Shown: piece by piece, positions 22,713 to 31,000 of the stretch
Layout of the letters: each line of letters begins with the position of its first letter
How positions within the stretch are numbered: position 1 is the stretch's first letter
From: Escherichia phage Shy
Direction: 5' to 3' (one strand)
Sequence record: OR996328
DNA length: 42,805 nt
Made by a program: the position numbers and the translations under genes
Notes under the pieces: generated by a model
The model's input: the letters and a program-made list of their open reading frames with translations, nothing else
Database searches by the model: none
Told to the model about the DNA's origin: nothing

Positions 22713-22748
22713 TAGCCCCGCCAGCGCAAGCCAGCGGGGCTAATTTTT
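22713..22748 (+). terminator. rho-independent terminator of the structural operon (convergent junction)
   Basis: TAGCCCCGC (22713-22721), 12-nt loop, GCGGGGCTA (22734-22742), then ATTTTT. It overlaps the stop codon of the minus-strand polymerase gene. Confidence 0.75.
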
Positions 22749-24882
22749 ACCATCCTTCGCCCGACCCTTCCAAGTCTTCGAACAGGTCTGGACGCTTCGC
22801 CTTCTTCGGCCCGTAATAGCCCATATCCGACAACATATCTTCGGCCATGTTCGTATACTGTTCGAAATCCATATCGGCCGGGAACGCGTCGGGTAAATCC
22901 ATAATCGGGCAAGCGCCTTCGCTATTGCCGACCGTGTTACCGTTCATAATGTAGTTAATCGTTCCGGTAACGCCTTTCGCGTAGTACCAGCGAATCGCCT
23001 TGCCCAAGAATAAGCCGTCTTTTTCGGCACCGCCCTTCACGTTCTTAACCGTTACGAAATCCTTGATATCGCGGCAACTGTTGACCGTTTCGGCAATGGC
23101 CTTACCTTCGATAAGGAAATGCGCAATCGCCTTCGCGCAAATTTCGTTGGTCGGTTGTTTCTTCAACGTGGTTTCGCCGAACACGCCTTTACCCTTGTAC
23201 AGCTTGTCGAACTTCGTACCTTCGGGGAACGTATCGACCCAAGATTTCGACGCCTTGTCGTAATGCTTTTTCAACGCGATATAGTTGTTAACGTCGCGGC
23301 TGAATACGCCTTTGTATTGGGTTTCTTCGGTTTCAAAACCGGTTAGCTTTTCCCATGCGGCGATAATTTCGTTAAGCTGTTCGTACTGGCTTTCGTGCGG
23401 CTTAATAACAATACCGTCGGTGTTCGCCGAAATAACCTTGATGCCCACAAGTTCCAGCATTTCAATTAGCATCAACAACGAAAGTTGGCCGGTCAACGTG
23501 GTTTGAATCAGAAGGTCGGGCGAATACAACGCCGAATACTTCGACCCCAACTTACCGAACGAACCGTTAATCGTAATCTTCAAGCTATCGGCGATAATCT
23601 GGTTAAGTTCTGCGACCGACAGGTCGGAAGACTTCGACAGCCCCTTCGCTTCAAGACGACGCGCAACGATGGTCTTATATACGGTAAGGAACGCCGGGCC
23701 AAGGTGTTTCGGGAAATATCCGTTATTGATAATGATATTCGGGTAATACGATGCAACGTCGCGGTCAATCAACAAGTAACCGTCGCGGGCGTAATGCGCC
23801 GCGCAATTCTCGGTCGAATGCAGACCGCCGACGCCCATTGTATAGACCGAATCGCCGATACGGATTTTCAGACCTTTAAGGAACGACGATTTCGGCCGCC
23901 CTTTTTCGCTGATTACGAACGGTGAATCGACCAACCGTTGCAATATCTGTTGCAACATCGGCGTTTGAAAGTGAACGAAAGCCGGGGGAACGTAATAGTA
24001 TTCGGTGCCCGGCGCAATCTTCGGTTTGCGGGCATAGTATCCGTTCAACTTTTCGCATTCCGCCGACAATACGTGTTCGGCGATTTGCGCATCGGAAAGC
24101 GAACGAAGGTCTTGCCCGTATTCGGTCGAAAGCTGTTCGCGCAACTTGATTTGCGGTTCTAAGTCCTTGAACAGTAGCGCCGTGTTATCCAAGTCGTTTA
24201 CGCAATAGAACCTAACGTTAACCGCCTGTTCGCGGGTCAATATGGTTTCCGGTTCGTATGGCAAGTCTTGCATACGTGGCGCGTGCAAACGCCCCGCATA
24301 CGTCTTCAACGACGCTTGAAGCGGGGCGACTTCGATTAGGTCAACGTGGTTAAACTCCGGTATCCGAATGTTGAATTCTTTTTCTATGTCTTCTTTGCGA
24401 TACGACTTGCGGTCTTTGGTTTCTAGTCCGTAATCCGCGTCGCCTTTAACCGGCCGCTTGTTGTCGTTAATAAGCCGGTTCGTAACGTATTTAAGTACGT
24501 TCATTGGCGCACCGGCCAGCGCAAGGAACAGTAAGAACCGGTCGAACTTGATACCGTTAAAACTGATATGCCGGAACGAATGAACGACCCAATTAAGTTT
24601 GTTCAAATCCGCTTGGCTGAATTGTGGGCAATCTGGCGACAGTTCGAACGTAACAACCTTGTTCGTTGCGATATCCTTAAATGCGATTAGAAAATAGTTC
24701 CAATAACATTCGATATCGAAAACCATAGTACCGCCCCGCGCTTCCCATAGTTCGCGGTCGGTAAATTCAACGTAAGGCCGGTTAATGATTGATGGGAAGG
24801 TTAAGACTTTCGGCACAAACGGGCCTTTCGTCTTCACCTTCGACCGCTTATTCGGCGCTAAATCCAAATCATCGAAGAACAT
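22747..24882 (-). CDS. DNA polymerase, family-B-like, with 3'-5' exonuclease motifs
   Basis: 711 aa. FDIEC is Exo I-like. DVASYYPNII resembles motif A (D..SLYPS), KITINGSFGKLG resembles motif B (K...NS.YG), and NTDGI resembles motif C (DTDS). The C-terminal RPDLFEDL is a possible clamp-binding peptide. Confidence 0.8.
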   Translation of the reverse strand: MFFDDLDLAPNKRSKVKTKGPFVPKVLTFPSIINRPYVEFTDRELWEARGGTMVFDIECYWNYFLIAFKDIATNKVVTFELSPDCPQFSQADLNKLNWVVHSFRHISFNGIKFDRFLLFLALAGAPMNVLKYVTNRLINDNKRPVKGDADYGLETKDRKSYRKEDIEKEFNIRIPEFNHVDLIEVAPLQASLKTYAGRLHAPRMQDLPYEPETILTREQAVNVRFYCVNDLDNTALLFKDLEPQIKLREQLSTEYGQDLRSLSDAQIAEHVLSAECEKLNGYYARKPKIAPGTEYYYVPPAFVHFQTPMLQQILQRLVDSPFVISEKGRPKSSFLKGLKIRIGDSVYTMGVGGLHSTENCAAHYARDGYLLIDRDVASYYPNIIINNGYFPKHLGPAFLTVYKTIVARRLEAKGLSKSSDLSVAELNQIIADSLKITINGSFGKLGSKYSALYSPDLLIQTTLTGQLSLLMLIEMLELVGIKVISANTDGIVIKPHESQYEQLNEIIAAWEKLTGFETEETQYKGVFSRDVNNYIALKKHYDKASKSWVDTFPEGTKFDKLYKGKGVFGETTLKKQPTNEICAKAIAHFLIEGKAIAETVNSCRDIKDFVTVKNVKGGAEKDGLFLGKAIRWYYAKGVTGTINYIMNGNTVGNSEGACPIMDLPDAFPADMDFEQYTNMAEDMLSDMGYYGPKKAKRPDLFEDLEGSGEGW
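23442..23449 (-). repeat. TGTGGGCA motif copy (minus strand)
   Basis: Minus-strand context aactTGTGGGCAtc, sense strand of the polymerase CDS. Confidence 0.9.
24623..24630 (+). repeat. TGTGGGCA motif copy
   Basis: gaatTGTGGGCAat, antisense to the polymerase CDS. Confidence 0.9.
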
Positions 24883-25901
24883 TAGTTTCGAATCCCCGCT
24901 ATTGCGCCCCGGATGCCGTCACCGAAGAAGAACGCTTGACCATTATACGACGTAAAGTCGGCCGACAACATATACGGTTCAATCATCAACAGCAATTTGC
25001 CGTTATACGCTTGGCCCGCTGGCAACCCTTCGACTTCGTATTGCGCCCCGTCCAAGCCGTCGGGATGCGACCGCATTTCGCCTTTTGCGAAGTATACGTT
25101 ACCCGTTGCGGTAAACGAAGCAACGGCCTTAACCGCGTCGAAGAATCCGTCGGGAAGCGGCCACGGGTTAACGTTCTTGTTCAAAATGGCGTCAACATTC
25201 GGCCAGCATTCCGAAAAAAGTTGCGTTTTGATAAACGATTCGTCGTCGAACCAGAACGTCGCGGAAGACGCCGAAAAGCCGAAACCGACTAAATCGCGTT
25301 CCGACTTTGCGATAACTTGCGCGGCGGCTTTCGGGATAACCAAGCCGGGCGGCAAGTCGATTCCGTGCCAGAACTCCAACACGACGATTTTGTTAGTCGC
25401 GTATACGGAATTCGCTTGCAGCAACAAAGACGCTTCAAGAACCGACGCCGCGCCTTCGGTAGCCAGTGCCATAACGGCCGCGAAGCCTTCTTTAATGCGG
25501 TTGTCGATTACGGCGATATTCGGGTCGGGATACGTGGTCGGCATCGACGTTAAATCGACGCACGGTACGACGGCCTTAAACTTGCCCGACTGAATCGTTA
25601 TCCGGCTGTTGTCGCCTTGGGTAATGCTGAACTGTTCCCCACATTTACCAAGGGCCGCCGCCAGCAAGTCGGATTGCGGGCACGCGGTCAAGTCTTCTTC
25701 GATGCGTCGGCCGATGGTCAATTGACCGTCGAACGCGCTAATCGTCTGGTTCTGTATGACTACGTGTTGTTGGTAGATATGACCGCCCTTCTTTTGGGCG
25801 GCCGATACGAATTTCAGGGCTTCAAGGAAACCAGCGGCGGCCGACGTTTCCTTAGCCTTGCGGGCGCGACTGCGACCCTTAGCGGCTGTTGCTTTCGCCA
25901 T
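24882..25901 (-). CDS. beta sliding clamp homologue (DnaN-like)
   Basis: 339 aa. ITIQSGKFKAVVPCVDLTSMPT aligns with E. coli beta MLVRSGRSRFSLSTLPAADFPN. FIKTQLFSECWPNVDAILNKN aligns with IFTSKLVDGRFPDYRRVLPKN. It is translationally coupled to the polymerase gene (TAATG). Confidence 0.6.
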   Translation of the reverse strand: MAKATAAKGRSRARKAKETSAAAGFLEALKFVSAAQKKGGHIYQQHVVIQNQTISAFDGQLTIGRRIEEDLTACPQSDLLAAALGKCGEQFSITQGDNSRITIQSGKFKAVVPCVDLTSMPTTYPDPNIAVIDNRIKEGFAAVMALATEGAASVLEASLLLQANSVYATNKIVVLEFWHGIDLPPGLVIPKAAAQVIAKSERDLVGFGFSASSATFWFDDESFIKTQLFSECWPNVDAILNKNVNPWPLPDGFFDAVKAVASFTATGNVYFAKGEMRSHPDGLDGAQYEVEGLPAGQAYNGKLLLMIEPYMLSADFTSYNGQAFFFGDGIRGAIAGIRN

Positions 25902-26115
25902 GTTCGGTACTCCGGTCGATTTCGGTAATCGCGGCTTGAAGGTAGTTCGCCATATCTAGGGCTTCTTCCAACGCGTGTTGCAACCATTCGCGAAGGGTCA
26001 ACGGGTTATTATCGGTCGTTACGCCGTATTTGGCAAGTCCGACGATAGACCGTTGCAACAGCATTTCGCGGTTCTTTTCGACGTTGCTGTCGGGCGATAC
26101 GGTAGGGTTTTGCAT
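25879..26115 (-). CDS. hypothetical protein (78 aa)
   Basis: SD TAAGGA lies 6-7 nt upstream. The helical segment GLAKYG...EWLQHALEEALDMANYL is faintly reminiscent of all-alpha NTP pyrophosphohydrolases, so no function is called. Confidence 0.5.
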   Translation of the reverse strand: MQNPTVSPDSNVEKNREMLLQRSIVGLAKYGVTTDNNPLTLREWLQHALEEALDMANYLQAAITEIDRSTEHGESNSR

Positions 26116-26124
26116 AACTTATCC

Positions 26125-26355
26125 TTAGAATGGAATGTCGAAGTCATGTTGCGCACAACCGTTAACCAATACTTCGGGCGGCGGTAATGCGTCGTAATAG
26201 TTGCATTTCGGCGGCGTATCCTTGTTCTTAGGGCAACCGTTTTGCGACCAGTGTTCGCAGTTCAAGCAAGTTTGAAGAATCATTGCGCCTTGCATTTCAA
26301 CTTGCAATGCGATTCGCAATTCGGCCTTACGGCGTAGTTGTTCGTTAATATTCAT
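26125..26355 (-). CDS. small Cys-rich protein ending in an SSB C-terminal-tip-like DFDIPF
   Basis: 76 aa with CLNCEHW...GC...C...C. The C-terminus ...GCAQHDFDIPF* was verified on the DNA (GAC TTC GAC ATT CCA TTC TAA on the minus strand). Confidence 0.6.
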   Translation of the reverse strand: MNINEQLRRKAELRIALQVEMQGAMILQTCLNCEHWSQNGCPKNKDTPPKCNYYDALPPPEVLVNGCAQHDFDIPF

Positions 26356-27988
26356 AGCTCATAATCTCCGGGTACTTTTTGTTAACCCAAACCTTGACCT
26401 TTGACGGAATCCGAAGATTCGGCGACCAGTCTACGGCCTGTTGTGCGGTCGGGAATTCGTCGCCGTCGTAACCTGTACGCGCCCGCCACCAATCCCGCGC
26501 CCGCTTTCCGGCGAATCCGCTATGTTCCAAACAAATAAATTCCTTGAACATCCGAATACCGCAGAAATACGAAACTTTCATCATATCCGGCGCACCTTCT
26601 TTTTGATGCAACGAATACAAGACCTTTTGAACGTCGAAGTATTCGACTTGCGGGAAGTCCGACCGCAATAACGCTTCTTCCGATGCACCGGCAAACAACT
26701 TCGGTTCGAACTTGAATTCGTGACCACAACCCGACGGGGTAGGGAACGGCGAACCGCCGCACCAACGGGCCGACGCGTGGTTGTAGCAACCGCAATTGTC
26801 GCAGATACGAACCGGCGCATCGCCGCCACCTTTACCGGGGCGCTTCGGAATAACCGGGTCGTTGATTGGGCCAAGCCGACGGGTATTACCGGCGAAGTCC
26901 AATACCAGACAATTCGACTTGACGTAATCGAAGCCGGGAATATATGCGGCGAAGTCCGGGTTATATGGACGCGTTCCACGACCCAGCATTTGCACCCAAA
27001 GGCCCGGCGAAAGCGTCGGCCGCATCATGCCGATAAGGTCTATCGGGGGATGGTCAAAGCCGGTCGTAAGTACGCCGTTGTTCACGATGCAACGCACGTT
27101 GCCCTTTTTGAACTGCGCGATACGGTCGTCGCGTTCTTTTGTGGGCATCTTGGAATGAACCGCGACCGCATCAATACCGAATGCGACCATCGTTTCGGCA
27201 ACGTGTTCGGCGTGCTGAATACCCGACGCGAACGTTAGCCAGCAATTCCGGTCGTAACCCTTTTCGACCATTTCGGAAACGCATTTATACGTTATTTCGT
27301 TTTGGTCAACGGCGCGTTCTAACGCCCCTTGCGCGTATTCGCCGCCGTGCAAGCCGACCGACGACAAATCGAATTCGGTTGCGGTAGGCTTTGCGATAGG
27401 CGGGCACAAGAACCCTTCGGCCAACAGGCGGTTAAACCCGTCGATATCCGTAAGGTCGTAACAAATATCGGTGAAGATTCCGTTATCGGTTATATACCCC
27501 ATTTTCATACGATACGGGGTTGCGGTCAAACCGATAACTTTTAGGTACGGATTGATTAAACGCAAGTGTTCGATAATCTTGTTATACATTGACGATTCCT
27601 TGTCGCTTAACAAATGGCATTCGTCAATCAAGATTAAATCGCGGTGCCCGAAAGCGGCGACGTTATTAACAACCGAACCGACGCCACCAAAGATAATTGG
27701 TTGCGCAACGTCTTTCGCTTTCAGGCCAGCGGAATAAATACCGATAGGCGCACCGGGCCAGATTTGAACCAGCTTCGCGGCGTTCTGTTCGATAAGTTCT
27801 TTTACGTGCGTCAACATCAACACGCGTTGCCACGGCCAAGCCATGAAAACGCGGCGTATGAATTCGGCGATTACGATAGACTTACCTGTTCCGGTTGGTA
27901 ATGCGACAACGGGGTTCCCGTCGTTACCGGCTTCGAAATAGTCTTTGATGCTGTTAATCGCTTCGTCTTGATACCAACGCAATAACAT
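26345..27988 (-). CDS. superfamily-2 DNA helicase (DEAH-type) with C-terminal zinc-ribbon region
   Basis: 547 aa. Motifs read: ALPTGTGKS (Walker A), LIDECH (motif II), GLTATP (motif III), QMLGRGTR (motif VI), and CDNCGCYNHASARWC. Confidence 0.8.
   Translation of the reverse strand: MLLRWYQDEAINSIKDYFEAGNDGNPVVALPTGTGKSIVIAEFIRRVFMAWPWQRVLMLTHVKELIEQNAAKLVQIWPGAPIGIYSAGLKAKDVAQPIIFGGVGSVVNNVAAFGHRDLILIDECHLLSDKESSMYNKIIEHLRLINPYLKVIGLTATPYRMKMGYITDNGIFTDICYDLTDIDGFNRLLAEGFLCPPIAKPTATEFDLSSVGLHGGEYAQGALERAVDQNEITYKCVSEMVEKGYDRNCWLTFASGIQHAEHVAETMVAFGIDAVAVHSKMPTKERDDRIAQFKKGNVRCIVNNGVLTTGFDHPPIDLIGMMRPTLSPGLWVQMLGRGTRPYNPDFAAYIPGFDYVKSNCLVLDFAGNTRRLGPINDPVIPKRPGKGGGDAPVRICDNCGCYNHASARWCGGSPFPTPSGCGHEFKFEPKLFAGASEEALLRSDFPQVEYFDVQKVLYSLHQKEGAPDMMKVSYFCGIRMFKEFICLEHSGFAGKRARDWWRARTGYDGDEFPTAQQAVDWSPNLRIPSKVKVWVNKKYPEIMSYEY
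27140..27147 (+). repeat. TGTGGGCA motif copy
   Basis: ctttTGTGGGCAtc, antisense to the helicase CDS. Confidence 0.9.
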
Positions 27989-28960
27989 TTAGTCTTTCCC
28001 GTTGATAATTGGTTTCCATTGGTCGCAAGCCTGTTTAATTTCGGCTTCGCCGGGAATAATTGCGTTCCATTGTTCGCAAAACCATCGCGCATTATCAACC
28101 GGCCGGGCCTTCACGCACGAACGGCAATTCTTTTCCGGTAATTCGCCTTTGTGGCAAATGCCTTTATAGTTGCAAAACGAACAAGGAACTTGCGCCGGGC
28201 TGGCCGAAATCTTCGGCATTGGGGTTTGACTTGCGATAACCTTTTCGGCCTTCTGAAACTGTTGTTCGCCAAGGCGCATATTTAGCGGTACGATTTCGAT
28301 ATGCAAGTCGTCGTCGTTCTTGTTCACGTTCAAGTAAACAACGAACCGGAAGTTATACGCATAGCCATACGTCGAAGTTTGCGCGAAGTGTTGCGGCTTC
28401 GAAAGCATCATGCCTTGTTCGCCCAACTTGTTAAAACCGGCCCCGGTTCCGTTGGTCTTGAACTCGCACAACATCGCTTCTTCGATACCGTAATGCGGCG
28501 GCAACTTGATAATACCGTCAAGCGAACCGCCAAAGTGCCCCATTGCGCCGGAAATACGGAATTGCTTTTTCCCCTTGTCTTCTTCGCTGGCGTTCTGGTC
28601 GTCGAATTCCCACACTTGGCACCCGATGCCGCGCAAGTATTCGATAAAGGTTGCTTCTTCACGGTGCCCGCGCTGGAACAGGCGCAACATGCGGCCCGTA
28701 AACTTTTCATGTTTCGCCCAACGGAAATGCAACCAAAGTTTTTGCAAGCAATCGTCGCCGATAAGCGATGCGCCCAAATGCGAACGCGGGCCAGTGTCGT
28801 AAGTTGCGACCGCCCATTTTTCGATATCGTCTTTCAGTCGGTTAGCTACCAACTTAGCGACGCCGGGTTGCATTAAGTCAACGCTTACGCTTGCGGTCTT
28901 TTCCGCTGTTTCGTTCGTATTCGCGTTGTTCCCGAAGATTTCGTTTTGCTGTTCGCTCAT
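27989..28960 (-). CDS. PD-(D/E)XK exonuclease, Cas4/RecB-like, with Cys cluster
   Basis: 323 aa. DGIIKL...LCEFKT gives a D...E.K core. An N-terminal C (GDDC) plus C-terminal PCSFCNYKGIC fits a Cas4-type 4-Cys cluster. The start is uncertain: ATG 28960 overlaps the upstream gene by 83 nt, and the alternative ATG 28873 has a weaker SD. Confidence 0.65.
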   Translation of the reverse strand: MSEQQNEIFGNNANTNETAEKTASVSVDLMQPGVAKLVANRLKDDIEKWAVATYDTGPRSHLGASLIGDDCLQKLWLHFRWAKHEKFTGRMLRLFQRGHREEATFIEYLRGIGCQVWEFDDQNASEEDKGKKQFRISGAMGHFGGSLDGIIKLPPHYGIEEAMLCEFKTNGTGAGFNKLGEQGMMLSKPQHFAQTSTYGYAYNFRFVVYLNVNKNDDDLHIEIVPLNMRLGEQQFQKAEKVIASQTPMPKISASPAQVPCSFCNYKGICHKGELPEKNCRSCVKARPVDNARWFCEQWNAIIPGEAEIKQACDQWKPIINGKD

Positions 28961-29393
28961 TTTTACGCGCCTTACGTCGTTCGATGATTTTTTCGTTTGC
29001 GGTGAAATGCTGGTTACAGATTTCGACCGCCCGTTGTAATTGGTCTTTCGACAACCAAGAAATATGGCAATCGTCCGACGCGATACCCAATTCGCCCGCC
29101 AACCAGTCGTAAGCGTGCGAACGCGACATTAACTTCGACTTCCAAATCGGGTCGAATGCGTCATGTACCTTTTGCCGTAATTGGCGCGTTGCCCGGTCGG
29201 CCATGCGACCAAGCGGGATAATCGTTCCGGGGTGACAGCCGACGGCCGCTTTGCAGTCGTGGCAATAATAGATTTCGGGCCAATCCCCGAATAGCCGACC
29301 GTAAATTCGGTCGTTTTGCGTTTGTTCGATGTTGACCGAACCGCAGTTATCGCAATGCGCCGGTATGGGCAATGCGTCTTCGACTTGTGACAT
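28878..29393 (-). CDS. zinc-ribbon protein with basic C-terminal tail
   Basis: 171 aa. CDNCGS...CHDCKAAVGCH gives a 4-Cys ribbon. The C-terminus is K/R-rich (ERRKARKNERTAKRNLREQ...DRKRKR). Confidence 0.55.
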   Translation of the reverse strand: MSQVEDALPIPAHCDNCGSVNIEQTQNDRIYGRLFGDWPEIYYCHDCKAAVGCHPGTIIPLGRMADRATRQLRQKVHDAFDPIWKSKLMSRSHAYDWLAGELGIASDDCHISWLSKDQLQRAVEICNQHFTANEKIIERRKARKNERTAKRNLREQREYERNSGKDRKRKR

Positions 29394-29453: not shown

Positions 29454-30263
29454 TTAGCGCGGTTGGCCCCAAGCCGGTTGGCCGCCGCCGTTGCCTTGGT
29501 TCTGGTTCCAGCCGCCGCCGTTGCCTTGCTGCTGGCCTTGGTTGCCCTGCTGGTTGCCTTGCCAGCCGCCGCCCTGCTGGTTGCCCTGCTGGCCGTTGTT
29601 GCCGTTGTTCTGGCCCCAACCCGGATTACCGCCGCCGTTGTTCTGGCCTTGGTTCTGGTTGTTGCCGCCGTTGTTATCCGGCATCGGAACGTTGTTCGCG
29701 ACCTGCGATTGACCGCCCCAACCGGCGTTGTTACCGCCGTTGTTTTGCTGCTGGTTCTGGCCGCCGTTCTGTTGCTGGTTGCCCCACGAACCGCCGTTGT
29801 TACCGGCTTGGCCGCCGTTGTTCTGCGCGGCTTGACCGTTGCCGTTGGCGTGGCCGGGTTCGTTACCGTTGATATCGAACACGCGTTTTACGTCGGTGTA
29901 CTTGTTCGGGTTCGGTTCTTTCTGCAACCCGACTTCGACCATAAACGGGATGTTGTGCAACTGTTGCGAATCTTGCACTTGGAACACGCCGGTAACGTGG
30001 CACAAAGCCGACAACTGTTTGTGCGCGATTTCGACGGTTTGCGGGTTGGTATGGTACAGGTTCAGGCGGTAAGCGCCGACCGCGCCTTTGTTCGGGCCGT
30101 CGATAACCTGCAAGTCGAATTGCAGATAACCGGAATCGTTATCCTTGGTCGGCTTTACTTCCGACTTGATAGCGATAACCGGATGCTTGCCGATAGGCAA
30201 ACCGCCGACGCCTTGGGTCGGGTCTACGTTACGCGCGTCGAACGCTTGCATCAATTGAGCCAT
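29454..30263 (-). CDS. ssDNA-binding-like protein (DUF669-type position) with ~140-aa G/N/Q/W-rich disordered tail
   Basis: Start moved to the ATG at 30263 (SD AAGGTAG). The ~125-aa N-terminal folded part lies next to the Sak4-like ATPase, as in many phage recombination modules. The tail resembles the bacterial SSB linker (GGWGQ...) but ends ...QPAWGQPR with no acidic tip. Confidence 0.6.
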   Translation of the reverse strand: MAQLMQAFDARNVDPTQGVGGLPIGKHPVIAIKSEVKPTKDNDSGYLQFDLQVIDGPNKGAVGAYRLNLYHTNPQTVEIAHKQLSALCHVTGVFQVQDSQQLHNIPFMVEVGLQKEPNPNKYTDVKRVFDINGNEPGHANGNGQAAQNNGGQAGNNGGSWGNQQQNGGQNQQQNNGGNNAGWGGQSQVANNVPMPDNNGGNNQNQGQNNGGGNPGWGQNNGNNGQQGNQQGGGWQGNQQGNQGQQQGNGGGWNQNQGNGGGQPAWGQPR

Positions 30264-30319: not shown

Positions 30320-31000
30320 TTACGACATTGCCTTTTTGAACAGTGCCGTTAAATCTGGTTGTTCCAGTTCGTTAAGCCGACCGCTTCGGTCGCGTGGTGC
30401 GTTGATTCCGAAGGTTGGTGCGGTGCGAATCGCCAACACTTGCGATTGTACACCGGGAACCGTCGTCTTTGCAACATGCCCGATTAGGTCGTACAAGTGC
30501 GGAACCTGAATCCCCAATTCTTGACCGGGGAAATACGGTTTCTTAACTTGCGTGCCTTCTTCTTCGGCCATCGCCTGTTTCGCAATCAAATACGTGTGTT
30601 TCTGTTGCATGTAGTACAAGCCGGTAAGGTGGTCTAGTACCTTTCGGGCCATTTCGCCGTAAGCCTTGCGGCCGTCGCGGTTGCGTTTCAATTCGGCTTT
30701 CACGACGATTTCGGCCAGTTGCGACACTGAATCGACGCCGACGGTATCGAAACCTTTGGATTCATTCGACCGAAACAGCCAATCGAAGAATTCGTCGATT
30801 CGTTCAACCGTTGGCGCTTCCCATGCGGGAACCGTCGAACCGCGCATCGACAACATACCCGGTTCGGTAATCAGCAATACCGGGCGCGGTGCGGTGTTGA
30901 TAAGCGGCGTCTTACCCGAACCGGGCGGCCCATAGGCCAACATCTTGACGCCGTATTGCCGGGCGAAATCCCCGGCCGGTCGTAAGTCGCGTGTTTGCAT
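30320..31000 (-). CDS. Sak4-like / AAA_24 RecA-fold ATPase
   Basis: Walker A is LAYGPPGSGKTP. Start moved to the ATG at 31000 (SD AGGTGA 6 nt upstream). The track start at 31084 would overlap the upstream gene by 32 nt. Confidence 0.7.
   Translation of the reverse strand: MQTRDLRPAGDFARQYGVKMLAYGPPGSGKTPLINTAPRPVLLITEPGMLSMRGSTVPAWEAPTVERIDEFFDWLFRSNESKGFDTVGVDSVSQLAEIVVKAELKRNRDGRKAYGEMARKVLDHLTGLYYMQQKHTYLIAKQAMAEEEGTQVKKPYFPGQELGIQVPHLYDLIGHVAKTTVPGVQSQVLAIRTAPTFGINAPRDRSGRLNELEQPDLTALFKKAMS

What the first reader, a model, noticed from the sequence alone, without database searches (positions are those of the whole stretch)
26125..26355. A 76-aa Cys-rich protein ends in DFDIPF, a mimic of the bacterial SSB C-terminal protein-interaction tip
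The ORF between the helicase and clamp genes ends ...NGCAQHDFDIPF-stop. I verified this on the DNA: GAC TTC GAC ATT CCA TTC TAA on the minus strand. Proteobacterial SSBs end in (D)DDIPF, and that hexapeptide is the docking site for many SSB-interacting proteins, including the chi subunit of the clamp loader, RecQ, PriA, ExoI, RecO and Ung.

Here the tip sits on a small putative zinc-binding protein (CLNCEHW..GC..C..C) instead of on an SSB. Meanwhile the phage's own SSB-like protein (29454-30263) carries an SSB-like linker but no acidic tip.

Two readings are possible. It could be an adaptor that recruits host SSB partners to the phage replisome. The host clamp loader via chi is one candidate, since the phage encodes a clamp but no loader. 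Or it could be a decoy that titrates the host SSB interactome. I am not aware of a described phage protein of this type.
Basis: partly seen in the sequence, partly recalled or inferred. Interest (0 to 1): 0.7.

Follow-up and report, generated by a model that had tools for sequence, protein, structure and literature searches.

The report
Portable SSB-tail mimic on phage adaptor
A small metal-binding phage protein ends in a copy of the docking tail of bacterial single-stranded-DNA-binding protein; in related phages the same tail sits on the helicase or the sliding clamp instead, so it looks like a movable plug that links the phage DNA-copying machinery to a tail-binding partner.

Summary
ORF 26125-26355 (-) of Escherichia phage Halfdan encodes a 76-aa protein ending HDFDIPF-stop.

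It belongs to a large, uncharacterised, phage-only family: 1,630 clusters at 50% identity, no Pfam or NCBIfam model, and PHROG 23504 'unknown'. The family has four invariant Cys. Of 190 sequences in hand, 188 end in PF and 159 in IPF, preceded by acidic residues.

The gene almost always overlaps the 3' end of a RadD-like helicase gene. [quoted passage not shown]

The main new result is that related phages with the same module carry one such tip on alternative proteins:
- this small protein;
- a disordered extension of the beta-type clamp (…YEDDIPF);
- a disordered extension of the helicase (…D[MLF]DDDIPF).

No locus had tips on two different carrier types. The phage's DUF669 SSB never has the tip; it ends in a different P-x-W tip.

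A tethered tip argues for a recruitment adaptor, not a free decoy. The receptor is unresolved. Host SSB-interacting proteins are most likely, with clamp-loader chi the leading candidate because there is a beta-type clamp and no annotated loader. The phage helicase or Sak4 remain possible receptors.

The parts
26125..26355 (-). Gene for the 76-aa Cys4 protein with the SSB-Ct-like tip (stop codon included). It is a member of an uncharacterised phage family (phrog_23504).
   Evidence: sequence; phrog_23504, E 3.4e-12; 1,630 cluster representatives at E<=1e-3; tip statistics.
26128..26145 (-). Codons for the C-terminal tip D71-F-D-I-P-F76.
   Evidence: P75 and F76 are invariant and D73 nearly invariant in the alignments. 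188 of 190 family sequences end in PF.
26146..26274 (-). Cys4 (putative metal-binding) domain, residues about 28-70. C30, C33, C51, C67, P58-P59 and G66 are conserved.
   Evidence: invariant columns. [quoted passage not shown]
26287..26343 (-). Variable N-terminal helix (residues 5-23 in the AlphaFold2 model).
   Evidence: model mean pLDDT 73.2; helix 5-23.
26366..26369 (-). GGAG Shine-Dalgarno-like sequence 10 nt upstream of the ATG, inside the helicase gene.
   Evidence: read directly from the sequence.
26345..27988 (-). RadD-like SF2 helicase without a tail. Its stop overlaps the small gene's start by 11 nt.
   Evidence: E. coli RadD 6jde, E 5.7e-60; NF053632, 272.8 bits, below the 720-bit cut-off; model of a homologue: top Foldseek hit RadD 7r7j, E 1.6e-34; gene linkage.
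24882..25901 (-). Beta-type sliding clamp without a tail (ends ...IRGAIAGIRN). In other phages this protein carries the tip on a C-terminal extension.
   Evidence: phrog_947; profile against PDB Pol III beta, E 1.9e-8; tails and tips on homologues.
27989..28960 (-). Cas4-domain exonuclease.
   Evidence: phrog_1990, E 9.3e-99.
27992..28147 (-). C-terminal Cys4 domain of the exonuclease (NCRSC...W.C...IP...aC..W), a paralogue of the small protein's domain.
29454..30263 (-). DUF669-type phage SSB with a G/N/Q-rich linker and no IPF tip.
   Evidence: PF05037, E 5.7e-13; phrog_6015.
29457..29480 (-). The SSB's own C-terminal tip, QPAWGQPR (P-x-W type).
   Evidence: 59 of 65 homologues have P.?W in the last 10 residues and none ends in PF.
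30320..31000 (-). Sak4-like (RecA-fold) annealing protein of the same module; a candidate phage receptor for the tip.
   Evidence: AAA_24; annotation. PMC5928155: HK620 Sak4 needs the NDYPPF tail of its DUF669 SSB.
22747..24882 (-). Family-B DNA polymerase of the module. Its C-terminus, ...RPDLFEDLEGSGEGW, may be a clamp-binding tail.
   Evidence: (LF-type C-termini in homologues).

Best explanation
The 76-aa protein is the stand-alone carrier of a portable docking tip of the bacterial SSB C-terminus (SSB-Ct) type. It serves the phage's replication-recombination module: Sak4, DUF669 SSB, Cas4 exonuclease, RadD-like helicase, beta-type clamp and PolB.

**Proposed mechanism**
- The Cys4 domain anchors the protein in the module. 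It is a paralogue of the exonuclease's C-terminal domain and is probably metal-binding. The most likely anchor is the helicase, with which the protein is co-translated.
- The free C-terminal ...D-F-D-I-P-F inserts into an SSB-Ct-binding pocket on a partner and recruits it to phage DNA.
- The phage coats its ssDNA with a DUF669 SSB whose tail is of a different kind (P-x-W). The bacterial-type tip is therefore supplied separately. Other lineages fuse it through a disordered linker to the helicase or to the clamp.
- The partner is most likely a host SSB-interacting protein. The chi subunit of the host clamp loader is the leading candidate, because these phages encode a beta-type clamp and no annotated loader.

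**Shown:** the motif, its conservation, the gene linkage, the domain homology, and the alternative carriers that were never seen together.
**Inferred:** metal binding, anchoring on the helicase, and the identity of the receptor.
For: **The motif is real and conserved**
- Sequence and family size. Tip statistics: 188 of 190 family sequences end in PF, with acidic residues upstream.

**One tip per module, on alternative carriers**
- 23 of 23 clamps in loci that hold the small protein have no tail. The clamps of Samson, DLP_2, RcTitan and BREN6, which lack the small protein by whole-genome or 24.5-kb six-frame HMM scan (DLP_2, RcTitan, BREN6) or by the ORF-level scan of an 11.8-kb locus (Samson), have extensions ending YSDDIPF, YEDDIPF, DPDDEIPF and YDDDIPF.
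- CAjan has no small protein and a tail-less clamp. Its helicase has a roughly 100-aa extension ending EDPDYVPF.
- Census of 80 IMG/VR loci found through the helicase: 33 with the small protein (30 ending in PF, 2 in PY, 1 in AF), 11 with a clamp tip, 21 with a helicase tip, 15 with none (7 of these truncated). None has tips on two carrier types.
- Locus L072 has a small-protein homologue without a tip beside a clamp with one.
- Helicase tips copy the bacterial 8-mer: DMDDDIPF x31, DLDDDIPF x15, DFDDDIPF x6 of 120. E. coli SSB ends MDFDDDIPF (PMC10238739).

**The phage SSB does not carry it**
- DUF669 SSBs in these modules never end in PF; 59 of 65 have a P-x-W tip.

**Linkage and domain homology**
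- The gene overlaps or abuts the helicase gene in 32 of 41 loci found through the small protein and 26 of 34 in the helicase-based census.
- The Cys4 domain matches the exonuclease C-terminal domain.

**Clamp-loader context**
- The clamp is beta-type. No clamp loader is annotated in Halfdan, DLP_2, RcTitan, BREN6, IMEAB3, BP63 or CAjan.

**Against a dedicated phage receptor**
- No phage gene family within +/-10 kb is distributed with the tip.
- AlphaFold2 leaves the helicase-borne tail undocked, pLDDT 35-37.
Against: - No binding data exist, and the tools could not model complexes.
- The carrier states cluster on the helicase tree: 11 parsimony changes against about 34 when shuffled, and the helicase-tip state is one clade. 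The exclusivity therefore rests on a handful of independent switches, not on 65 independent observations.
- About 10% of complete modules (8 loci) and Acinetobacter phage IMEAB3 have no tip at all, so the tip is accessory.
- All known hosts are Proteobacteria whose SSB ends in IPF, so covariation between phage tip and host tip could not be tested.
- In the small-protein family the acidic part is loose (K at -4 in 30 of 190; DKIPF in Sphingomonas phages). The tip also follows the folded domain directly, with no linker, unlike SSB.
- The hydrophobic residues of the RadD SSB-Ct pocket and a basic residue at the R145 position are conserved in the phage helicases, so the helicase is not excluded as receptor.
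Confidence: 0.5

Rival explanations
1. The receptor is the phage's own RadD-like helicase. E. coli RadD has an SSB-Ct pocket, and occupying it stimulates the ATPase. The small protein, or the clamp tail, or the helicase's own tail, would supply the activating or recruiting tip that the DUF669 SSB cannot give.
For: - The helicase is RadD-like over its full length.
- The RadD pocket and the SSB-Ct stimulation are experimentally defined (PMC10238739).
- The small gene is translationally coupled to the helicase gene in most loci.
- The hydrophobic pocket positions (F20, L44, L113, L147) and a basic residue at R145 are conserved in 75 phage helicases.
Against: - R21 is not conserved (Glu in Halfdan) and the R49 column is G/N/T. 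In E. coli, charge reversal at R21 abolishes binding.
- Pocket residues do not differ between phages with a tip and those without.
- AlphaFold2 does not dock the natural helicase-borne tip; tail pLDDT is 35-37.
- Septimatreviruses have the same helicase with the tip on the clamp, and some phages have none.
Confidence: 0.2
2. The receptor is another core phage protein. The main candidate is Sak4, whose HK620 homologue is recruited by the ...NDYPPF tail of its DUF669 SSB. PolB is a second candidate, by analogy with the T7 polymerase, which binds the acidic Phe-terminated tails of gp2.5 and gp4. The tip would couple recombinase or polymerase to the helicase or clamp.
For: - PMC5928155: the last six residues of a DUF669 SSB are needed for Sak4 binding and stimulation.
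- Sak4 is present in 62 of 80 helicase-ascertained loci.
- The T7 precedent is from established knowledge and was not tested here.
Against: - DUF669 SSBs of this module keep their own universal P-x-W tip, including in phages without any IPF tip. That tip is the more economical partner for Sak4.
- A purely phage-internal pair need not copy the bacterial 8-mer D[FLM]DDDIPF.
- No accessory phage gene is distributed with the tip.
Confidence: 0.15
3. The protein is a free decoy. It would saturate SSB-Ct pockets of host enzymes such as ExoI, RecQ, RecJ, PriA and Ung, and so shut them off or protect phage ssDNA ends.
For: - The tip resembles SSB-Ct.
- The gene is accessory among related phages.
- The family was found in only 1 locus (a 44.9-kb MAG contig) in a motif-seeded scan ([TCS]CLNCEH[WF]) of 185,579 species genomes, a profile typical of host-takeover genes.
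Against: - Equivalent tips are covalently attached to the helicase or the clamp and were never seen together with the small protein's tip. That fits recruitment, not titration.
- The Cys4 domain is conserved and paralogous to a domain of a module enzyme, which suggests anchoring.
- A monovalent tip is a poor competitor for tetrameric SSB on DNA (inference).
Confidence: 0.1
4. The IPF ending is only a structural cap of the Cys4 fold, and its likeness to SSB-Ct is coincidental.
For: - The tip follows the last Cys after only 5-6 residues.
- The paralogous exonuclease domain also has a Pro-hydrophobic pair after the last Cys (...W-x-P-I).
Against: - The chain ends exactly at Phe in 188 of 190 sequences, whereas exonuclease tails vary in length.
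- The same motif recurs at the end of long disordered linkers on helicases and clamps.
- The model's last residues have low confidence, block pLDDT 59.
Confidence: 0.03

Closest known systems
C-terminal tip of bacterial SSB (SSB-Ct, ...DFDDDIPF) and its network of SSB-interacting proteins (chi, PriA, RecQ, ExoI, RecO, RecG, RNase HI, RadD and others)
   Same: An acidic stretch is followed by I-P-F, and the chain ends at Phe, so the free carboxylate is available. In the helicase- and clamp-borne versions the whole 8-mer and a disordered linker are reproduced.
   Different: - The carrier is not an SSB: there is no OB fold and no Pfam SSB hit.
- In the 76-aa protein there is no disordered linker, and only D-F-D precede IPF.
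- The phage's real SSB (DUF669) lacks the tip.
Phage HK620 DUF669 SSB tail (NDYPPF), which recruits Sak4 (Hutinet et al. 2018, PMC5928155)
   Same: The same kind of recombination module (Sak4 plus DUF669 SSB) and a PF-terminated tail that mediates protein recruitment.
   Different: In HK620 the tail is on the SSB itself. Here the SSB ends in P-x-W, and the PF tip sits on a separate Cys4 protein, the helicase or the clamp.
Phage T7 replisome tails: acidic, Phe-terminated C-termini of gp2.5 SSB and gp4 helicase-primase that bind the polymerase (established knowledge, not tested here)
   Same: A precedent for the same type of acidic aromatic tail on more than one replisome protein, including a helicase.
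   Different: - T7 tails end in ...DF, not IPF, and both occur together.
- Here there is one tip per module, on alternative carriers, and it copies the host SSB motif.
E. coli RadD and its SSB-Ct pocket (PMC10238739; PDB 6jde, 7r7j)
   Same: The adjacent phage helicase is a full-length RadD homologue.
   Different: Two of the three pocket arginines are not conserved in the phage helicases. E. coli RadD has no partner protein of this type and no SSB-like tail.

Membership tests
Cys4-IPF small phage protein family (phrog_23504; no Pfam or NCBIfam model) | Significant sequence match over the Cys4 domain and the tip. | tested here: met
   phrog_23504 E 3.4e-12. The family profile finds 1,630 cluster representatives. 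The window ORF scores 84 bits against the family HMM.
Cys4-IPF small phage protein family | Four conserved Cys (CxxC...C...C), a PP motif, and a chain ending in [IV]PF. | tested here: met
   C30, C33, C51, C67, P58, P59, P75 and F76 are invariant. 189 of 190 sequences fit the Cys pattern.
Bacterial/OB-fold SSB (PF00436) | N-terminal OB-fold ssDNA-binding domain. | tested here: not met
Bacterial/OB-fold SSB (PF00436) | Intrinsically disordered linker between the core and the tip. | tested here: not met
   The tip starts 4 residues after the last Cys. Linkers are present only in the helicase- and clamp-borne versions.
Bacterial/OB-fold SSB (PF00436) | C-terminal acidic tip ending in IPF with a free carboxylate. 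| tested here: met
   HDFDIPF-stop, conserved across the family.
Functional SSB-Ct mimic (binds SSB-Ct pockets of interacting proteins) | Physical binding of the tip to an SSB-Ct-binding pocket. | not testable with these tools
   No complex modelling or binding assay is available. The only proxy, cis-docking in an AlphaFold2 monomer model of a tailed helicase, was negative.
Zinc-ribbon / zinc-finger families | Match to a known Zn-binding fold or profile. | tested here: inconclusive
C-terminal Cys4 domain of phage Cas4-type exonucleases | Profile-profile homology covering all four Cys. | tested here: met
   hmmsearch E 1e-6 to 1e-5 against 7 exonucleases. hhalign probability 89.9%, E 1.7e-6, 42 columns.
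Beta-clamp-binding motif (QL[SD]LF-type) | Consensus Q-L-x-L-F, or a related pentapeptide or hexapeptide. | tested here: not met
   DFDIPF does not fit the consensus. In some phages the motif sits on the clamp itself.
RadD helicase (the neighbouring gene, as candidate receptor) | SSB-Ct pocket framed by Arg21, Arg49 and Arg145 (PMC10238739). | tested here: inconclusive
   Hydrophobic pocket positions and R145 (as K/R) are conserved. R21 and R49 are not.

The most novel reading that the evidence does not exclude
Phages that replaced the bacterial-type SSB with a DUF669 SSB have separated the SSB's two jobs. The DUF669 protein coats ssDNA and uses its own P-x-W tail for phage partners. A separate, movable copy of the host SSB tail sits on a dedicated Cys4 adaptor, on the helicase or on the clamp. 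That tail recruits the host clamp loader through chi, so that a phage-encoded beta clamp is loaded for the phage PolB. The result would be a hybrid phage-host replisome assembled by tail mimicry.
Probability: 0.3. Interest if true: 0.85.

Novelty: new variant of a known kind. Interest (0 to 1): 0.8.

Why it matters
The SSB C-terminal tip is the central docking signal of bacterial genome maintenance and is studied as an antibiotic target.

This work points to a very large phage family (more than 1,600 clusters at 50% identity) that puts the signal on a non-SSB protein. Evolution has also moved the signal between an adaptor, a helicase and a sliding clamp, with one tip per module. Three things follow:
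- It gives a concrete, testable answer to how phages that encode a beta-type clamp but no loader, and an SSB without the bacterial tail, connect to host machinery.
- It assigns a likely role to an abundant 'hypothetical protein', and to unexplained tails on phage clamps and RadD-like helicases.
- It provides natural high-diversity variants of an SSB-Ct mimic.

Tried and rejected
- **Family libraries.** Pfam and NCBIfam gave nothing.
- **Bacterial genomes.** The first scan failed because the alignment had no conserved stretch. The second, seeded on the peptide pattern [TCS]CLNCEH[WF] (present in only about a quarter of the family sequences in hand), found 1 locus among 185,579 species genomes, a phage-like MAG contig. 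Host assignment through prophages was therefore impossible.
- **Helicase as receptor.** Conservation of the RadD pocket is ambiguous. AlphaFold2 of a naturally tailed helicase shows no cis-docking.
- **Search for a phage gene distributed with the tip.** None was found.
- **Clamp-binding motif reading.** Rejected, because the clamp itself can carry the tip.
- **Literature.** Searches for SSB-Ct mimics in phages found no description. The Halfdan papers do not discuss the gene.
- **Not testable.** Covariation between phage tip and host tip, because all known hosts are Proteobacteria with IPF tips.

Full report
**1. Observation**

The window is Escherichia phage Halfdan (genus Lokivirus). It is 98.5-98.9% identical to MH362766 and to the 'Juelich variant' PP954860.

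ORF 26125-26355 on the minus strand encodes 76 aa ending ...NGCAQHDFDIPF-stop, exactly as reported. A GGAG lies 10 nt upstream of the ATG, and the ATG overlaps the last 11 nt of the upstream helicase gene.

In both public records the gene is annotated 'hypothetical protein'. It is the only ORF of at least 30 aa in the window that ends in [ILVMT]PF.

**2. The family**

The protein has no Pfam or NCBIfam match. It falls in PHROG 23504, function unknown.

- tblastn finds relatives in 150 phage records. Hosts include Salmonella, Vibrio, Pseudomonas, Rhizobium, Escherichia, Xanthomonas, Achromobacter and Sphingomonas. Nearly all of the listed alignments run to the last residue of the query.
- A profile search of 1.84 billion cluster representatives finds 1,630 proteins at E<=1e-3 and 397 at E<=1e-10. 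Among the 150 listed, all are 56-137 aa and all but one match through to the end of the profile.
- Invariant positions are C30, C33, C51, C67, P58, P59, P75 and F76.
- Of 190 sequences in hand, 188 end in PF and 159 in IPF. D/E dominate at -4, -5, -6, -8 and -9, and W/H at -7.

A motif-seeded scan ([TCS]CLNCEH[WF], present in about a quarter of the family sequences in hand) of one genome for each of 185,579 bacterial and archaeal species found a single locus, on a 44.9-kb MAG contig that looks like a phage. As far as that partial scan shows, the family belongs to virulent phages.

**3. Context**

The gene lies inside a conserved minus-strand module:
- Sak4-like annealing protein
- DUF669 SSB
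- DUF3268 protein
- Cas4-domain exonuclease
- RadD-like helicase
- the small protein
- a 78-aa ORF
- sliding clamp
- family-B polymerase

The helicase is a full-length RadD homologue. It matches 6jde at E 5.7e-60, and a model of a homologue matches RadD 7r7j at E 1.6e-34.

The clamp is beta-type: its profile hits Pol III beta in the PDB at E 1.9e-8.

Gene linkage to the helicase:

| Sample | Overlaps or abuts helicase 3' end | Within 600 nt | About 2 kb or more away |
|---|---|---|---|
| 41 loci found through the small protein | 32 | 6 | 3 |
| 34 small genes in the helicase-based census | 26 | 4 | 4 |

The distance from the small gene to the clamp gene varies from 0 to about 7 kb.

**4. The Cys4 domain has a paralogue next door**

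The family HMM also hits the last 45 residues or so of the Cas4-type exonucleases of these modules (E 1e-6 to 1e-5). A profile-profile comparison gives 89.9% probability and E 1.7e-6 over 42 columns, with all four Cys aligned.

In Halfdan this exonuclease segment is ...NCRSCVKARPVDNARWFCEQWNAIIPGEAEIKQACDQWKPIINGKD. The small protein is therefore a free-standing copy of an exonuclease domain with a tip added. This suggests the domain is a docking or DNA-binding element used within the module. That reading is an inference.

**5. The tip moves between carriers**

Close relatives with the same module but no small protein carry the tip elsewhere.

| Phage | Host or group | Tip carrier | Tail ending |
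|---|---|---|---|
| Samson | Septimatrevirus | clamp extension | ...YSDDIPF |
| DLP_2 | Septimatrevirus | clamp extension | ...YEDDIPF |
| RcTitan | Rhodobacter | clamp extension | ...DPDDEIPF |
| BREN6 | Brenneria | clamp extension | ...GYDDDIPF |
| CAjan | Seuratvirus (E. coli) | helicase extension, about 100 aa | ...EDPDYVPF |
| IMEAB3 | Acinetobacter | none found | none |

For these phages, absence of the small protein was checked with six-frame HMM scans of complete genomes or large regions. In Samson, DLP_2, RcTitan and BREN6 the clamp extension adds roughly 45-50 residues to clamps that are otherwise tail-less in phages with the small protein. In contrast, all 23 clamps in loci that hold the small protein stop right after the conserved ...RGxxxG strand. 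BP63 gp54 is likewise a tail-less clamp.

Among 3,582 ORFs of the first locus set, only 50 end in PF: 42 small proteins, the 2 tailed clamps and 6 junk ORFs.

Census of 80 IMG/VR loci retrieved with the helicase:

| State | Loci |
|---|---|
| Small protein | 33 (30 ending in PF, 2 in PY, 1 in AF) |
| Tip on a clamp extension (tails 16-54 aa) | 11 |
| Tip on a helicase extension (tails 15-81 aa) | 21 |
| No tip | 15 (7 on truncated contigs) |
| Tips on two different carrier types | 0 |

Two loci are informative exceptions. L072 has a small-protein homologue that lacks the tip, next to a clamp that has one. L113 has two tip-bearing small ORFs.

A further 120 helicases of the tailed clade end in DMDDDIPF (31), DLDDDIPF (15), DFDDDIPF (6) and close variants; 116 of 120 end in [IVC]PF. 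DFDDDIPF is the exact ending of E. coli SSB (PMC10238739).

**6. Caveat on independence**

On a helicase tree the states are clustered. There are 11 parsimony changes against a mean of 34 for shuffled states. The helicase-tip state forms one clade, and the clamp-tip state arose at least three times. The 'one tip per module' rule therefore rests on several independent switches, not on dozens.

**7. The SSB has a different tail**

Halfdan's DUF669 protein has a long G/N/Q-rich linker and ends QPAWGQPR. Among homologues in the census, 59 of 65 have P-x-W in the last ten residues and none ends in PF.

DUF669 proteins are accepted phage SSBs (PMC4889955). In HK620 the DUF669 SSB ends NDYPPF, and those six residues are needed to recruit and stimulate Sak4 (PMC5928155). 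In the Halfdan-type module the ssDNA-coating function and the bacterial-type tip are therefore carried by separate proteins.

**8. Which receptor?**

Four tests were possible.

- **RadD pocket.** E. coli RadD binds SSB-Ct in a pocket framed by R21, R49 and R145. In 75 phage helicases the hydrophobic pocket positions and a K/R at the R145 position are conserved. R21 is not (Glu in Halfdan), and the R49 column is G/N/T. Phages with and without a tip do not differ. The result is inconclusive.
- **Cis-docking.** An AlphaFold2 model of a naturally tailed helicase is confident in the core (pLDDT 84.6) but leaves residues 548-565 at pLDDT 35-37. No cis-docking is predicted. This is weak evidence against the helicase as receptor.
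- **Co-distributed phage gene.** No phage gene family within +/-10 kb is distributed with the tip. A phage receptor would have to be a core protein that is also present in phages without a tip.
- **Clamp loader.** No clamp loader is annotated in seven complete or nearly complete genomes of this group, while the clamp is beta-type.

It is established knowledge that chi of the clamp loader docks on SSB-Ct (see also PMC9825162, listed). It follows that ssDNA coated with a DUF669 SSB would not offer that site. This makes chi an attractive receptor, but it remains an inference.

**9. Conclusion on mechanism**

The tethering of the same motif to the helicase or the clamp, and the absence of loci with two tip-bearing carrier types, argue that the 76-aa protein is a recruitment adaptor. 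They argue against a soluble decoy.

The faithful copy of the bacterial 8-mer favours a host SSB-interacting protein as receptor, because a purely phage-internal pair would be free to drift, as the DUF669 tail has. The RadD-like helicase and Sak4 remain live alternatives. Binding was not and could not be tested here.

**10. Novelty**

Docking through an SSB-Ct tip is well known, and acidic Phe-terminated tails on several replisome proteins are known from T7 (established knowledge). Three things appear not to have been described:
- a dedicated Cys4 adaptor that carries the bacterial SSB tip;
- the same tip on phage beta-type clamps and RadD-like helicases;
- its separation from the phage SSB.

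Literature searches in the held library found nothing on these points.

Noticed in passing
window 29454-30263 (-), tip at 29457-29480: The DUF669 SSB has a long G/N/Q-rich low-complexity linker and its own conserved C-terminal tip of P-x-W type (QPAWGQPR). Among homologues, 59 of 65 share it and none ends in PF. It is probably the docking signal for a phage partner such as Sak4. In HK620 the equivalent tail is NDYPPF.
   Followed up: partly
window 27992-28147 (-), C-terminus of the Cas4-domain exonuclease: An extra Cys4 domain follows the Cas4 Fe-S motif (NCRSC...W.C...IP...aC..W). It is conserved in nearly all exonucleases of this module and is homologous to the small protein's domain. Its function is unknown.
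   Followed up: partly
window 25879-26115 (-): A 78-aa ORF (phrog_11184, unknown function) lies between the small gene and the clamp. It is conserved in DLP_2 (gp29). In Acinetobacter phage IMEAB3 (orf18, L048:11002-11415) it is fused to a Cys-rich N-terminus.
   Followed up: no
window 22747-24882 (-), C-terminus of PolB: The polymerase ends ...KRPDLFEDLEGSGEGW. Homologues end in ...PDLFFF, ...ASLF and ...GRLF. These look like clamp-binding tails.
   Followed up: no
L072:11655-13035 and L113:1188-3365: L072 has a small-protein homologue without the tip (ends GNYGTSGT), directly followed by a clamp with a tip (VTGDDVPF). This looks like a transitional form. L113 has two tip-bearing small ORFs flanking the helicase.
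   Followed up: partly
window 28878-29393 (-): A DUF3268 zinc-finger protein gene (PF11672, E 9.7e-35) overlaps the 5' end of the exonuclease gene by 83 nt. It is another Cys-rich protein of unknown role in the module.
   Followed up: no
whole window / records MH362766 and PP954860: The phage is recorded on E. coli K-12 MG1655, but a 98.9% identical 'Juelich variant' is recorded on Pseudomonas taiwanensis, and the closest other relative infects P. syringae. The true host range may be unusual, or the E. coli assignment may deserve a check.
   Followed up: no
L050:26364-28340 (CAjan) and helicases of L074-L128: Tailed helicases share a conserved CFDGTAFG motif right after the RadD-like core, before the disordered linker and tip.
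   Followed up: no
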